In this document: positions 1 through 51,000 of the stretch, in pieces | Position numbering within the stretch: the first letter of the stretch is position 1 | How the letters are laid out: each line of letters starts with the position of its first letter | DNA from: Octopus vulgaris | Lineage: Eukaryota | Length of the DNA: 64,000 bases | Reading direction: 5' to 3' | NCBI GenBank assembly: GCA_951406725.2 | Contig: OX597836.1 | Coordinates: forward strand, 38,192,001-38,256,000 | Made by a program: the position numbers

Positions 1-3000
1 ATATCATTTTCTTAGCTCCTGCAGCTCCCGTTAAAATTGTGGAATTATCAACTGGTAAGAATTCAGAGCTTAAATTGAATAGGAACTAAATGTAATATCC
101 AATTTTAAATGTTACATACCAGAAATTATAAAATACTTCATTAATTTTGTAATTCCCTATAATAATCTAAGTAAACAGTGCATACTTAAATTACTTCCCA
201 TATTATACTATGATAGGCTGTAATATTCACAAAATTATTTCGGAACGAGTATCAAGAATGATAAAATACTTTAATATTCTCTATCTTTACTTAAAAGTTC
301 TACATTATCAATGCATGATTAATTGACCTCATATATTTTTAAAATCTTTGAAAGCTATATTTGTATAATTCAATATATGTAAGCCTTAATTCATGATAAT
401 ATTCTATGAAAATCGACGTGTATACTTCAAATCATATATTGATAGTTTAAAATTTTTTTTAAAGTTGACTTTTATATGTAAGGAATTACAAACCTCACTT
501 TATGAATTTCTGAACAAAATTTGATAAAAATGATATCTTGTTAAAGTATTTGATAATATATCCCCCTTTATCTCACATATAAGAAAAAATATTTTTAACA
601 GATGCACTTCCCCTTGTTATACCTGTGGAAATTAAAACTGGTAAGAGAATTAACTAATAATAGAAACCATAAACATGATTTATCTTGACAGTACTTCCAT
701 GTTGAACAGCTAATGGATATGATATATTCTAATAGCTAGATATATTCATATTGTTTCAGAGGCATTCTTCATTAGATACATACTGGTTCAATATTGAATA
801 GAGATTATGCTTATCTCCTAATTTTTATAGGTTTCCTAACAGAAAATTTTCTCTAAGTTGATTTATATTAAAGTAATCAGACAAATTTCCATTACAGTGG
901 AATTTCAAATTCAGTTTTAGAATTCAAATATTACACATGCGCACCCGTACACGCACACTGTATACCTAAATGCTAAACATCATTTAACAACTCTTTGTTA
1001 TGCTCAATCACAGTGTATTATTGAGTCACAATTAAGACACCACACACCAAACCCACACTGATTCCATGAGAAGAGATACTGACAGCATCCTCCAATGTTG
1101 ATATGCTTATCTTCTCTCTGTGATCAGTGAGAAAACACAAATGTTACTCTTATCAAGAAAACATCATCACACTACACATTCTTAATCATAATCAAAACTG
1201 CAACTAGAATCCTCATAATTGTTCTAATTGGTGAACCTTAATACCTCCAATGATCCCTCCATATATATAGTTCTGCTTCACATTGCCTGGCTCTTCTCTT
1301 TTGAAACCAGAAGATAACTCAGTCTCCAACAACTATTGACAATCTGCAAAGCTGAAGTGAAGCCCACATCTGGGACAATACTGGTGCTGCATTCAATGAC
1401 ATCTTAGAATGTACCTAGGAAAGAGACATTTGACTGATTTGCATAAAGTCATTCACAGACAGCACTCCAGCTTTTGATTCATAGGCATGCTGTCTACTTT
1501 ATTTGTCTTTTCTACCACAATTATAGTGGTATCCAATCTAATCTGTTCCTCAGAGCTGGCTACATTTTGTCCCCCCCTCCACTCAGACATCACACTGATA
1601 ATAATGCCTAGGCCATTCTTTCTAGAAAGTCAGTTGTTAAGGATTCCTCTTTTGTTCATGTCTTTCCTACAGATGTTCATTTGCAAAACTTGAAAAAGAA
1701 CACTAATGGTGTCACTGTCACCAGCCTAGGATGGTCTGCAAGCTCTTCTCCTTCTGCTATAATCAGCAAGTTAATAAAAAGGAAGTTGAGAGCATGATGA
1801 CCATGCCCATATGATTGTAACCAGATATTACAATAGTTGTTGCACTTTAGCATTCCAAATGGTTTTGTATCTTAAATTTGAGTTTACTATTTTATGTAAA
1901 CAATGGATCAGATACTCTTGCAGACAGATTTTTCTATGTTTAGATTGGTCTTAAAGTAATCAGTCAAACAATTTCCATTCCAGTGGTCCTTCGCAAGCTA
2001 AAAAGGAGTGAATTAATGTTATTGGCAAATGAGAAATAATTTATGATTTATTGACAGAGAGGATTCTAAAACTTTTTGTTTATTCTTGTCAATATTCTTA
2101 CATGTGTTTGTGCCTGCTAACATTTGATCACTGAGTTTGCCTTACAAAATATACCCTCATAATTTGACACAGACATTTTAGTTTCGCTACTGGGGGGGGG
2201 GGGCCCCAGCATAAAACATATTTTTACTAGATGACGTATAACTGTACGCATTGATAATTTCTTTTGTATATATTATCACTTTACAATCCTATTTAACATG
2301 CAGACATTTTTTTAAAACTCTGTTATCACAAATATGAAAGGTCTTCCTACAGAAATTATAAGCAGTATATCAATATTCAATATTGATCATTAATTAGATT
2401 AACTGGGCACTTCACATTCTACCATATTCCACATAGAAATAATGGACTTATGATTACAATGTTACTTTCATATTAATATACTTGTAAATAACCAGTTTCA
2501 TTAAATTAGATAATTATTTGATAATATAATTTAATATCAACAACGCTTATAATCAAGAAATTACTTATTACATAGATAATCATAATAATTTTCTTCTTCA
2601 CATAATCCTATTTCATCTCAACATTCATTAACTGTTTTATTGATATCCATACAAATATTATTCTAGTCTATGACTGAGATTATATTCTGTCACCAATGTT
2701 AGAATTTTAGTAAAACTTAACTCCTAATGATCTGCTTTTTCTCAGTTATTTATACCTAGTAATATAGCCTAGCATTACTCAGTTAATATTTAGTTTCACT
2801 GTTACCTGTTAAGCATGTATAATACTAGCAGGAATAAAATTTAGCTTCAAATATTTTTTTTACAATATTTGTCACATTTATGACATATCTAAATCATTCC
2901 TCAGTTATGACATATCTAAATCATTACTCTGTTAGGACATCATATAACAAAGGCTAAATCATAAAATACCTAAAAGATCTGTGTATTCTCATCATATCCT

Positions 3001-48000: not shown

Positions 48001-51000
48001 AGAATCTCTCTCTCTCTCTCCCCCAATATATTTCCTGAAATTTATTTTTGTTCAGAATATATTTGTTTATTCATCTCACATATAAGACAATATGTTTGTA
48101 ACAGCTACACCTCCAGATATAATACCCATGGATGTTTAAACTGGTTAGATAAATTTTTGAAAAACATGTAGCTGATTATCTGACACTTAAATATGTTATA
48201 TTTAAAACCTTCAAAGTTTGATTTTCAAATCCTTTTTGTTAGGGTCTAATAACTACAAGCTTTTCTCTTATGACTGACATAAAATGTGAACCATTTGTAT
48301 GTGCATATTTGTAAAATAGGACATAATTATGTTATAATACATATTTACTAGTAGTTTCAGAGGTTTTTTTCTACTTATTTTTTTTTTTACATACTTCATC
48401 AGATTTCATATTGATTTAGTTATCATTGTTAGATATTCATGGTGTCTTAGGTATATTATCAAATGAAAGGGAAAGTTAAAATACTCCTAACAATGTCCAA
48501 TGTACAATGCCAATATTATCAAAGTTCTGATTCGGTATCAAACCTGAGTAACAGACCACAGTTGTCTTTCGTCCAAAAGTTTGCTTTCTCTTTCATATAC
48601 ACTACTGTGTTTCGGTTCTTTTGTCTCAGATTTTTTCCAACTATATACTATTTTGTCAGTCACATTATTTTCCTGGCCTTTCCAAGAATTTGTATACATT
48701 TGGCAGGCCAAGTCACTCTTGGTGGAACACAAAACCTCACTTTGAACTCATTTATTTAGTTAAAAATGAAATTATTTATTAATCTCATAGAATATCAATA
48801 CTGTATAGTAAATATTATAGTTTTTCAAGTAATGTAAATAGTGTAGATAGGGAAAAAATATCTCCTTTATCTGTTATAGTATTATAAGCATATGTTCTGT
48901 TTTCCATTATAAGGGATAGTTGCGGCAAGCTGGAAGAATCGTTAGCACACTGGGTGAAATGCTTAGCAGTATTTTGTCTGCCATTACATCCTGAGTTCAA
49001 ATTCCACTAAGGTTGACTTTGTCGTTCATCCTTTCAGGGTTGATTAAATAAGTACCAATTATATACAGGGGTCGATGTAATTGACTTACTCCCTTTGTCT
49101 ATCCTTGTTTGTCCCCTCTATGTTTAGCCCTCTGTGGGCAATGAAGAAATAATTATAAAGGATATTAGAAGTATAATTGAGATAGTACAAATGTGCTGTC
49201 TAATCATTGTAATTCATTTGTGATGTAATATTTATGCATGCTTGTTATCTAGCTTTGACTAGAATAACCAACACAGATAAAAATTCTCTGTTAGAAAACA
49301 GGATGATTCAGCTTTAGAATCCATTGCAATTAAAAATTCTCCATAGATAACCACTTTGTCCATTCTCATTCATCTGATTTGTGGGTTTTCTTTCTTATGA
49401 ATTATCTTTTATAGCATCATGTAAAATTTGTAGGATTTTCATATTTTGAAAATTGATGGAGAGAACATGAAGCATGATGCCCGTTTTGTATTTTTTTTTT
49501 TTTTTGTTTTTCAGCATACTTGTACTCTGTTCATACATGCTGACATTACACATCCAGCAGCTCATTTCTTTCCAATTTCATATATCCCCACAGAATCTAG
49601 TCATTCTATAACCCTCACATAAACATGTCTGAGTCATTTACATCTCTATTTCTAGTGTCTCATTTCACTACTATGGAGACCATGTTTAATATTTATCCCA
49701 GTACCTCATCTCACTTCTAATATAACTTTCTAAATTTTAGCATTTCTAATTAAAAATCAGTCAATTTAACTTCGTTCTCTTATCAACATTCTTCAAAACA
49801 GAAGAAGAATCTAAAGGAATAATGGACTGTGTTCTCTTTCAGACTATATCAAATTAACCAAGAATTTCAAAAGGTTTGTTAACCTGGCTTGCCATTCTAC
49901 TGATGGAATTAAACAATAAAATCATTTTTGTTTCAGCTATTTATAAAATTTAATGACAAAATATTAAGTTTTAGATATTCTTATAAGGAATATACTTATT
50001 TCTTTTCTTTCTGTAAATCTTTTTCAGTTCGCACACCACCAGGTATGTTGATAATTACAATTTTTTGCATAATTAAAACTGAAATTAAAATGCTTAGTTT
50101 AAAATAATTAAAGTGTGTAATTATAAGTAATAAGGTGTATTTATAATTAAACTTTATAATGTCTTATTATTATTGTTTAATATTTAAATTGACCAAATTA
50201 TATTTACTATTATTTAAGTGCCATATGTAATTGATATTTTGTTTTCATTGTTTATGTTTTAAATGAATTCTGTTGTTTCATCTTTTGGAAATGTTACTTT
50301 TACATTTTACCTTAAAACTTTGTGTACATCTATTAATCTTTGAAGTGTTTCTTTATATATATTGTTAAGCAGGATTGGTTTAAACATGATAGAAATTAAA
50401 CATGTGTTTTTTTTTTTTTTAGTGGGAGGGTTTGTAGAAGGTATCCAAATAATAATCTCACACAATGTTTTAAATCATAAATAAAACTATTACAATTTCA
50501 AGGTCAAGTAAATTGAAGATTAACAATTTATCTTTGAATGTGATGTTTTTCTCCAAAATACACATGTTATGAAAATAATTATTCTGGTAATCCTCAAGCC
50601 AATCCTGCTGATAATATTATAAAATATTGCAGCTGTACTAATAGTAAAAGTTCATTTCCTTTTACAGACAATATTAATATTTCCTGAACTTATGCATTTC
50701 TTTTATCGTTAATTTCCTTTATTTACAGTTAATTGTTTTCTCAAAAATATTATTTCAGAGTTATTTAAATCTAACATTTCTTACATAACTTGTAAACAAA
50801 TGTCATACTTTGTACTTGACTCTGTATATATTATTTAAATGATTTTTCTAAGTATGAACAATGCAAAATTTCATTTTGTTTATCATTCCATGTTTTTCAT
50901 TATTAACTGTATAAATTTATCATGATATTTACATTAATTCTATTTTTACACACATAACCATTTGTAAGTATATGATTTTCTTTTTGTTATTTAAATGTTA

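What the first reader, a model, noticed from the sequence alone, without database searches (positions are those of the whole stretch)
16..50042. Array of about 25 symmetric microexons encoding a potentially length-tunable Pro/Thr spacer ahead of VWA domains
Seen: 11 tandem units each hold a 39-nt A exon and a 39-nt B exon, followed by solo 33, 36, 39 and 15-nt exons. All intact ones are multiples of 3, phase 1-1 and end G|gta. The 22 intact A/B exons give about 278 aa of (APAAPVKPVELTT-AAPPPVIPVEKTT)n from about 43 kb of DNA. B2, B5, B6, B7 and B10 encode the same peptide and differ only at synonymous sites, and B-exon indels are in frame. Known: symmetric exons can be skipped freely, and titin PEVK and tropoelastin tune mechanics this way. 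This repeat is itself rich in P, E, V and K, plus TT pairs that could be O-glycosylated. Inference: a spacer or spring of splicing-adjustable length in an extracellular multi-VWA protein, probably missed by standard annotation.
Basis: partly seen in the sequence, partly recalled or inferred. Interest (0 to 1): 0.92.

Follow-up and report, generated by a model that had tools for sequence, protein, structure and literature searches.

The report
Octopus microexon array encoding proline-rich spacer
A 50-kb stretch of an octopus gene holds about two dozen tiny 39-base exons that together encode a proline-rich, probably floppy spacer in front of a string of adhesive VWA domains; the exons look real and a public gene model of a sister species already uses them, but whether splicing varies the spacer's length is untested.

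Summary
The window has 11 tandem units of about 3 kb, each with a 39-nt A and a 39-nt B exon. Solo exons of 33, 36 and 15 nt follow, all phase 1-1 on the + strand, upstream of single-exon VWA domains.

Only 20 of the 22 A/B exons are intact: A3 has lost its GT donor and A4 is 38 nt. The 39-nt "solo" carries an in-frame TAA and a GTTAG donor.

The decisive result is P0016, a 2134-aa public protein model. It is 100% identical to the Octopus bimaculoides protein A0A0L8FLC0 over the part they share. Its N-terminus carries 11 A/B-type 13-14-residue modules, then the 33-, 36- and 15-nt exon products, joined to the VWA domains. The array is therefore coding in an existing annotation, not wholly missed.

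Across the 3-kb unit the two exons and their near flanks are the only conserved peaks. Twenty of 22 intact compares with about 30-33% expected under neutral decay.

Synonymous changes are not enriched (16 of 53, p = 0.53). The constraint is therefore on the nucleotide sequence and exon integrity, not on residue identity.

Splicing-tunable length remains untested. This is a new member of a known kind, of moderate interest.

The parts
16..54 (+). A1 microexon, 39 nt, phase 1-1 (APAAPVKIVELST)
   Evidence: the window begins just upstream, so the array may continue 5' of the window
602..640 (+). B1 microexon, 39 nt, intact but divergent (DALPLVIPVEIKT)
3148..3186 (+). A2 microexon, 39 nt
3491..3529 (+). 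B2 microexon, 39 nt (AAPPPVIPVEKTT)
6222..6260 (+). A3, 39 nt, donor ATAAGA (GT lost): probably dead
6593..6616 (+). B3, 24 nt (in-frame 15-nt deletion), splice sites kept
9504..9541 (+). A4, 38 nt (1-nt deletion, frameshift), prolines lost: dead
9850..9888 (+). B4, 39 nt, intact sites but degenerate peptide (AAPPPVTLMAKTT)
11796..11834 (+). A5 microexon, 39 nt (APAAPVKPVELTT)
12172..12210 (+). B5 microexon, 39 nt
14637..14675 (+). A6, 39 nt, intact sites, degenerate peptide (AAPAPDKLAELTT)
15238..15276 (+). B6 microexon, 39 nt
19500..19538 (+). A7 microexon, 39 nt; 13 of 13 residues identical to P0016 residues 103-115 (unique match)
19864..19902 (+). B7 microexon, 39 nt
22760..22798 (+). A8 microexon, 39 nt
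23070..23108 (+). B8 microexon, 39 nt; 13 of 13 identical to P0016 residues 156-168 (unique match)
25805..25843 (+). A9 microexon, 39 nt (acceptor ...ACAAAG)
26171..26209 (+). B9 microexon, 39 nt
27970..28008 (+). A10 microexon, 39 nt
28382..28420 (+). B10 microexon, 39 nt (nucleotides identical to B7)
35614..35652 (+). A11 microexon, 39 nt; 13 of 13 identical to P0016 residues 195-207
36194..36232 (+). B11 microexon, 39 nt; identical to P0016 residues 208-220
40490..40522 (+). B12 solo microexon, 33 nt (APPVIPVEIAT); one residue differs from P0016 residues 221-231
43173..43208 (+). B13 solo microexon, 36 nt (VALPIEPVEILS); P0016 has a 13-residue version, an in-frame difference
48105..48143 (+). 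B14, a dead B-like copy: in-frame TAA, donor GTTAGA; absent from P0016
50028..50042 (+). 15-nt microexon (VRTPP), cag|...|gtatgt; the same five residues sit in P0016 between the B13 equivalent and the 42-nt linker
53304..53750 (+). VWA1 exon, 447 nt, phase 1-1. Truncated VWA (Pfam positions 1-154 of 174). First exon of model P0001 (ATG at 53249), skipped in model P0016
57224..57265 (+). 42-nt linker microexon (EPTHTAPKYAFEKF), phase 1-1, present in P0001 and P0016
58197..58766 (+). VWA2 exon, 570 nt, phase 1-1, 93% identical to O. bimaculoides A0A0L8FLC0
59919..59945 (+). 27-nt Pro/Ala linker microexon (VIIPAAAPQ), phase 1-1, present in P0001 and P0016
60976..61545 (+). VWA3 exon, 570 nt, phase 1-1, 95% identical to P0001

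Best explanation
The array is the 5' part of one long + strand gene of an octopus. The gene encodes a secreted-type protein made of many VWA domains and no collagen helix.

A two-exon unit of about 3 kb was duplicated in tandem at least 11 times. Each unit holds exon A, a roughly 0.3-kb intron, exon B and a roughly 2.5-kb intron. Every intact 39-nt exon starts and ends in phase 1, so any run of them splices in frame. Each adds 13 residues rich in Pro, Ala, Val and Thr, with one Glu and one Lys.

Together with the solo 33-, 36- and 15-nt exons they build a low-complexity segment of about 280 residues. This is inferred to be extended and disordered, and possibly O-glycosylated at its Thr-Thr pairs. 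It sits in front of the VWA beads and is of the same make as the short Pro/Thr linker exons between those beads.

Shown here: exon anatomy, the VWA context, the presence of the same modules in a public sister-species model, and conservation confined to the exons and their near flanks.

Inferred: the constraint acts mainly on splice signals, reading frame and composition rather than on exact residues. The array evolves by birth and death of units (A3, A4 and B14 are dead; A6, B1, B3 and B4 are decaying). The segment serves as a spacer or tether. Inclusion of most exons may be constitutive.
For: Sister-species model:
- P0016 (2134 aa, 100% identical to O. bimaculoides P0001 over 58% of its first 400 residues) begins with 5 A-type and 6 B-type modules. 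The products of the 33-, 36- and 15-nt exons, the 42-nt linker and VWA2 follow.
- Exon-by-exon tblastn gives unique 100% matches for A7, B8, A11 and B11.
- P0016 has 9 VWA domains and no collagen helix.

Phase and gene structure:
- The VWA exons and the linker exons at 57224-57265 and 59919-59945 share phase 1-1 with the array.
- There is no other long ORF or gene on either strand in 1-36 kb apart from microsatellite and repeat-derived frames, and no Rfam match.

Conservation:
- Over the 9 aligned whole units, column identity is 0.35-0.74 in the introns. It reaches 0.8-0.9 only at exon A plus or minus about 40 nt and at exon B from about -40 to +120.
- Divergence from the majority is 0.058 (A) and 0.067 (B) in exon plus splice dinucleotides, against 0.213 in deep intron.
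- 20 of 22 A/B copies keep AG, GT, frame and an open reading. A substitution-only neutral simulation predicts 30-33% (binomial p = 2.5e-8). This is not corrected for shared ancestry or gene conversion.
Against: - No transcript or peptide data were available. P0016 is a model of unknown provenance (source label only "metaclust status=active") and is incomplete at its 5' end.
- A profile of 19 exon contexts searched against 1.84 billion representatives gave 1 hit, and it is spurious (P0012). A search with P0016 residues 1-262 among shorter proteins gave none.
- Synonymous changes are not enriched among paralogous copies: A 5 of 24, B 11 of 29, together 16 of 53, p = 0.53. In-frame indels are 3 of 4 (p = 0.11).
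- Near-flank intron is almost as conserved as the exons. Downstream of B it is as conserved or more so, so gene conversion of a core block is not excluded.
- The other public model (P0001) starts at an ATG just upstream of VWA1 with a hydrophobic stretch that could be a signal peptide.
- P0016 skips VWA1 and holds only 11 array exons.
Confidence: 0.72

Rival explanations
1. The exons are cassette exons whose number is varied by regulated alternative splicing, so that tissues set the length and compliance of a PEVK-like extracellular spring.
For: - All intact exons are symmetric (phase 1-1), so any subset keeps the frame.
- About 40-120 nt of flanking intron is conserved around each exon. From general knowledge this is a hallmark of regulated exons (recalled, not tested here).
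- The intron just downstream of B keeps invariant CTAATAA, TAAC and CTAA motifs in 11 of 11 copies. These resemble STAR-family splicing-factor sites (recalled motif, untested).
- P0016 holds 11 array exons where the window has 22. P0001 and P0016 also differ by whole symmetric exons elsewhere in the gene.
- The composition meets the PEVK_Finder ratio.
Against: - There are no isoform data.
- The splice sites are strong and nearly uniform: GTAAG in 23 of 25, with good pyrimidine tracts. That fits constitutive use.
- No consensus RNA structure was found in the conserved flank (-2.08 kcal/mol). No B-downstream to A-upstream complementarity beyond shuffles was found in 10 pairs (z from -2.7 to +0.5, only one below -2).
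- TGCATG is not enriched (50 against 46 expected).
- The differences between P0001 and P0016 may be differences between annotation pipelines.
Confidence: 0.25
2. The array is a separate or untranslated upstream feature. The VWA gene really starts at the ATG at 53249 (as in P0001), with the hydrophobic stretch as its signal peptide. P0016 would then be a wrong fusion of an upstream Pro-rich gene or exon-like repeats with the VWA gene.
For: - P0001 starts there. The ATG and the hydrophobic stretch are kept in the window.
- P0016 does not contain VWA1 at all.
Against: - The stretch before VWA1 is also a good pyrimidine tract ending in AG, exactly in phase 1 like every other exon of the gene.
- VWA1 is a truncated domain (Pfam 1-154 of 174). 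Its homology runs past the model's donor into a stop, and no exon supplies the missing end. It looks more like a decaying cassette exon than a proper first exon.
- The gene uses the same kind of Pro/Thr microexon linkers between its VWA domains.
Confidence: 0.1
3. The copies are non-coding pseudo-exons in a tandem repeat kept alike by gene conversion. The public model that contains them is a prediction artefact.
For: - There is no excess of synonymous change.
- The flanks are as conserved as the exons.
- Several copies are dead or decaying.
- No independent protein with the repeat was found.
Against: - The conservation peaks are centred on the exons, and AG and GT are kept in 24 of 25 and 23 of 25 copies.
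- Unit-specific variants (A7, B8, A11, B11) are shared with the sister species. This argues against strong homogenisation.
- A model that includes a 15-nt exon and eleven 39-42-nt exons is unlikely to come from ab initio prediction alone (inference).
Confidence: 0.08

Closest known systems
Titin PEVK region (vertebrate muscle)
   Same: - It has many short, repetitive exons, each encoding one unit of a Pro/Glu/Val/Lys(/Ala)-rich disordered segment.
- It evolved by tandem exon duplication and is hard for standard annotation tools (PMC6469411, abstract and passages).
- The window's exons reach a P+E+V+K+A ratio of 0.71, against the 0.54 threshold used there.
   Different: - There is no sequence homology. 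No PPAK or other Pfam match was found in the repeat part of P0016 at E up to 1.
- The unit is 13 residues in two alternating types, with Thr-Thr pairs, rather than about 28 residues.
- The protein is an extracellular-type multi-VWA protein, not an intracellular Ig/FN3 filament.
- Differential splicing and spring behaviour are not shown here.
Collagen VI alpha-3/-5/-6 type chains and other multi-VWA matrix proteins
   Same: - They are strings of VWA domains. The best named relatives of the VWA exons are molluscan and vertebrate "collagen alpha-3/4/6(VI)-like" and "cartilage matrix protein-like" entries.
- One VWA domain per phase 1-1 exon allows domain skipping. For COL6A3 this is recalled; only a search listing was seen.
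   Different: - P0016 has 9 VWA domains but no collagen triple helix, Kunitz or FN3 domain.
- Those proteins are not known to me (recall) to have a long N-terminal Pro-rich array built of 39-nt exons.
Schistosome micro-exon genes (MEGs)
   Same: Secreted proteins encoded by runs of very short symmetric exons (3-81 bp) separated by long introns (abstract of 10.1101/2023.06.21.545858 in the listing).
   Different: - In MEGs most of the coding sequence is microexons and the proteins are small.
- Here the microexons form one segment and the linkers of a protein of more than 2000 residues whose bulk lies in 570-nt exons.
- No homology was tested or expected.
Mucin-like Pro/Thr/Ser domains
   Same: - Tandem Pro/Thr-rich low-complexity sequence in an extracellular protein. 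The inter-VWA linkers of P0001 and P0016 are runs of T and P.
- The nearest Atlas look-alikes were mucin-like fragments of a viral glycoprotein G, at a score of 0.78. That is below the level that means anything.
   Different: - Thr+Ser is only 0.145 of residues.
- The segment is encoded by many microexons rather than one large exon (the latter recalled).
- Glycosylation is untested.

Membership tests
Multi-VWA extracellular matrix proteins (named collagen VI-like by sources) | Several von Willebrand factor A domains (Pfam PF00092) | tested here: met
   Three VWA exons in the window (E = 1.7e-22, 1.4e-40, 1.7e-39). There are 9 VWA stretches in P0016.
Collagen VI chains proper | Gly-X-Y collagen triple-helix segment (Pfam PF01391) | tested here: not met
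   No PF01391 match in P0016 at E up to 1, and none in the Pfam list of P0001. The window covers only the first three VWA exons, and both models may be incomplete.
Titin PEVK | Exon-wise composition rich in P, E, V, K (and A), ratio at least 0.54 | tested here: met
   0.54 without A and 0.71 with A over the 23 intact microexons, 283 residues. The threshold comes from PMC6469411 passages.
Titin PEVK | Homology to titin PPAK/poly-E repeats and a place within titin's Ig/FN3 I-band | tested here: not met
   No such Pfam family matched P0016. The neighbouring domains are VWA.
Titin PEVK | Differential splicing of the repeat exons and entropic-spring mechanics | not testable with these tools
   No transcript collections or mechanics at hand.
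Schistosome micro-exon genes | Most of the coding sequence made of symmetric microexons; a small secreted product | tested here: not met
   The microexons make up about 280 of more than 2000 residues. The rest lies in 447-570-nt exons.
Mucin-like PTS domains | Dense O-glycosylation of Ser/Thr in Pro-rich tandem repeats | not testable with these tools
   Composition only: P 0.258, T 0.134, S 0.011.

The most novel reading that the evidence does not exclude
The array is an invertebrate, extracellular counterpart of titin's PEVK spring that arose independently. It would be a run of interchangeable 13-residue modules whose number is set tissue by tissue through cassette splicing. The conserved intronic blocks, with invariant CTAAY-type motifs downstream of each B exon, would guide that splicing. 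The result would give octopus connective tissue a matrix protein of adjustable reach or compliance. It could then be a candidate for rubber-like proteins of cephalopod tissues whose genes, to my recollection, are unidentified. One example is the octopus arterial elastomer. The held library gave no occurrence of that phrase in the 10 papers listed.
Probability: 0.18. Interest if true: 0.65.

Novelty: new member of a known kind. Interest (0 to 1): 0.4.

Why it matters
Runs of tiny repetitive exons are routinely lost by gene predictors. Here one public model of the gene lacks the whole array and another holds only half as many exons as this window.

If the exons are used as inferred, the protein carries a Pro-rich arm of about 280 residues ahead of its VWA beads. 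That changes how one would think about its reach and its partners in cephalopod matrix.

The array is also a clean natural case for studying two things. One is how microexons are kept intact by constraint on splicing signals rather than on residues. The other is how such arrays grow and decay.

If splicing does vary the number of modules, it would be a second, independent invention of the titin-PEVK principle, this time outside the cell.

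Tried and rejected
Searches that found nothing useful:
- Profile search with 19 single-exon contexts (unaltered window translations) against 1.84 billion representatives gave 1 hit. It is an unrelated repetitive 200-aa protein matching mostly the intron-encoded part. 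Because relatives closer than 50% are represented by one protein, P0016 itself could not appear.
- Search among shorter proteins with P0016 residues 1-262 gave none of 8000 scored candidates. Low-complexity words may have swamped the candidate list.
- A single 29-aa exon context was too short for the search for homologous proteins.
- Cluster membership of P0001 and P0016, which might list isoforms, could not be read because the database was switched off.
- ESM Atlas look-alikes scored 0.78, below meaning.
- Literature: the repeat peptides appear in 0 papers and accession A0A0L8FLC0 in 0 papers. Nothing specific came up for octopus + VWA + microexon. Supplements are closed, so proteome tables that might list the protein were not seen.

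Ideas tested and dropped:
- Rbfox-type TGCATG enrichment was rejected: 50 matches against 46.5 expected.
- A structured RNA in the conserved intron downstream of B was rejected: 6 pairs, -2.08 kcal/mol.
- Intron-bridging base pairing was rejected. Neither B-downstream with the next A-upstream (10 pairs) nor A-downstream with B-upstream (11 pairs) gave a consistent excess over mononucleotide shuffles.
- No extra degenerate copies were found by nhmmer apart from one weak A-like hit at 22451-22491, E = 0.011.
- No exon supplying the missing C-terminal part of VWA1 was found.
- There are no Rfam families in the window.

Exons were handled one at a time.
- No eukaryotic genome or RNA-seq collection was available.

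Full report
**Observation**

The window is AT-rich (GC 0.20-0.37 per 2 kb) and has no N. A six-frame motif scan, BLAST of one A and one B exon with flanks, and later nhmmer profiles found 11 A-type copies, 11 B-type copies and three further B-like copies. All lie on the + strand and there were no others.

Exact borders give 39-nt exons that follow an AG and end in G before GTAAG. There are four exceptions:
- A3 has donor ATAAGA.
- A4 is 38 nt long.
- B3 is 24 nt long, an in-frame loss of 15 nt.
- B14 has an in-frame TAA and donor GTTAGA.

B12 is 33 nt and B13 is 36 nt. A 15-nt exon lies at 50028-50042 between cag and gtatgt.

In phase 1 the A exons read APAAPVKPVELTT-like and the B exons AAPPPVIPVEKTT-like. 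B2, B5, B6, B7 and B10 encode identical peptides. So 20 of 22 A/B exons are intact and give 255 residues. With B12, B13 and the 15-nt exon, 23 intact microexons give 283 residues: P 0.258, A 0.163, V 0.141, T 0.134, E 0.078, K 0.067.

Introns alternate between about 0.27-0.56 kb (A to B) and 1.8-7.2 kb (B to the next A).

**Context**

Downstream lie three single-exon VWA domains:
- VWA1 at 53304-53750, 447 nt, which matches only Pfam positions 1-154 of 174.
- VWA2 at 58197-58766, 570 nt.
- VWA3 at 60976-61545, 570 nt.

Two more microexons sit between them: 57224-57265 (42 nt) and 59919-59945 (27 nt, VIIPAAAPQ). All are in phase 1-1.

VWA2 is 93% identical to Octopus bimaculoides A0A0L8FLC0 (P0001, 1580 aa). 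VWA1 is 97.6% identical and VWA3 95%. The window therefore comes from a close relative of that octopus.

P0001 starts at an ATG (window 53249) inside what is also a good pyrimidine tract plus AG before VWA1, and it lacks the array.

**Decisive comparison**

A search with P0001 residues 1-400 returned P0016. This protein is 2134 aa, carries only the source label "metaclust status=active", and is 100% identical to P0001 over 58% of the query part. I take it to be a second model of the same O. bimaculoides gene. That is an inference from identity; the source gives no organism.

P0016 has no initial Met. Its content, in order, is:
- 76 Pro-rich residues that have no match in the window.
- 5 A-type and 6 B-type modules of 13-14 residues.
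- The equivalents of B12, B13 and the 15-nt exon (VRTPP).
- The 42-nt linker.
- VWA2 onward.

P0016 skips VWA1 and does not contain B14.

Exon-by-exon tblastn gave unique 100% matches for A7, B8, A11 and B11, and 10 of 11 for B12. For B13 it gave a 9-residue core with a one-codon length difference.

These unit-specific variants are shared between species, while the units differ from each other by 20-35% in their introns. The array is therefore older than the species split and is not strongly homogenised.

P0016 has 9 VWA domains and no collagen helix. I did not build or search a joined model of the window's own exons. All comparisons were made exon by exon.

**Tests for constraint**

In 9 aligned whole units, column identity is 0.35-0.74 through the introns. 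It rises to 0.8-0.9 only at exon A plus or minus about 40 nt and at exon B from about -40 to +120 (finer bins).

Divergence from the column majority is 0.213 in deep intron, against 0.058 (A) and 0.067 (B) in exon plus AG and GT. A substitution-only neutral simulation at 0.213 leaves 30-33% of copies with AG, GT and an open frame. The observed figure is 20 of 22 (binomial p = 2.5e-8). This figure ignores shared ancestry and possible gene conversion, so it overstates independence.

Results against residue-level selection:
- Differences from consensus are 5 synonymous of 24 in A and 11 of 29 in B. Together that is 16 of 53, against 0.30 expected (p = 0.53).
- Exon indels are in frame in 3 of 4 cases (p = 0.11).

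The signal is thus one of kept splice sites, frame and nucleotide sequence, with composition-preserving replacements (P/A, V/I/M, T/A). It is not one of kept residues. That fits a low-complexity spacer whose tiny exons are dense in splicing information. The second part of that statement is inference.

**Flanks and mechanism of splicing**

The 105 nt downstream of each B exon are as conserved as the exon. Invariant CTAATAA, TAAC and CTAA motifs occur in 11 of 11 copies, but there is no consensus fold (6 pairs, -2.08 kcal/mol).

No consistent complementarity links B-downstream to the next A-upstream (10 pairs) or A-downstream to B-upstream (11 pairs) beyond shuffles. TGCATG is not enriched.

The motifs resemble binding sites of STAR-family splicing factors. 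That is recalled and untested. Splice sites are strong and uniform, which does not by itself suggest regulated skipping.

**Negative searches**

- A profile of 19 single-exon contexts against 1.84 billion representatives gave one spurious hit.
- P0016 residues 1-262 against shorter proteins gave nothing.
- The Atlas gave only sub-threshold, composition-type look-alikes.
- Cluster members of P0001 and P0016 could not be listed.
- No paper in the held library contains the repeat peptides or the accession. Supplements were closed.
- No eukaryotic genome or transcript collection was available, so transcription, isoforms and the unit count in O. bimaculoides remain unchecked.

**Reading**

The best-supported account is that these are real coding microexons of a multi-VWA matrix-type gene. 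They build a Pro/Ala/Val/Thr-rich arm of about 280 residues, of the same make as the linkers between the VWA beads, and they evolved by tandem duplication and decay of a two-exon unit.

The conserved flanks and the shorter array in P0016 hint at it, but nothing here shows it.

The segment resembles titin's PEVK in exon architecture and composition (PMC6469411, abstract and passages), but it is not homologous to it. The protein resembles collagen VI-type chains in its VWA string but lacks a collagen helix. It shares the symmetric-microexon principle with schistosome MEGs (abstract seen in the listing), though most of its coding sequence lies in large exons.

**Verdict**

The feature is real and was largely described correctly. 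It is already partly captured by one public model and is undescribed in the searched literature. It is a new member of a known kind, and its interest is moderate until isoform data exist.

Noticed in passing
window 53304-53804: VWA1 is a truncated VWA domain (447-nt exon, Pfam positions 1-154 of 174). Homology to VWA2 continues about 45 nt past the donor used in P0001 and then meets a stop. No exon in the window supplies the missing end. One public model (P0001) starts in it and the other (P0016) skips it. It may be a decaying cassette exon or an alternative first exon.
   Followed up: partly
P0001 versus P0016: The two models of the sister-species gene differ by whole symmetric pieces. These are a 9-residue Thr/Pro insert in the linker after VWA3, an 11-residue Thr/Pro insert before a later VWA domain, and one entire extra VWA domain with its linker. 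This could be alternative splicing or a difference between annotation pipelines.
   Followed up: no
window, about 105 nt after each B exon (e.g. 12211-12325): An intronic block as conserved as the exon itself, with invariant CTAATAA, TAAC and CTAA motifs in 11 of 11 copies and no predicted common fold. It is a possible splicing enhancer.
   Followed up: partly
window 29507-29822 and 36987-37245: Two copies (83.5% identical) of a G+C-rich element. The first carries a 78-nt tandem repeat. Probably an interspersed repeat inserted in the long introns.
   Followed up: no
window 38300-38803 (-), 62792-62986 (-), 63316-63613 (-): Open frames that look like remnants of mobile elements: a reverse-transcriptase-like tail and mariner-like transposase pieces. 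That reading is by recalled motifs only; Pfam gave no significant match.
   Followed up: partly
window 14749-15014, 30185-30607, 33769-34680: Long (TA)n microsatellites, up to 912 nt, inside the array's introns. They account for most of the long spurious ORFs.
   Followed up: no
window 22451-22491: A weak A-like nhmmer hit (E = 0.011) between B7 and A8. In the same interval P0016 has an extra 14-residue B-type module that the window lacks. It may be the trace of a lost unit.
   Followed up: no
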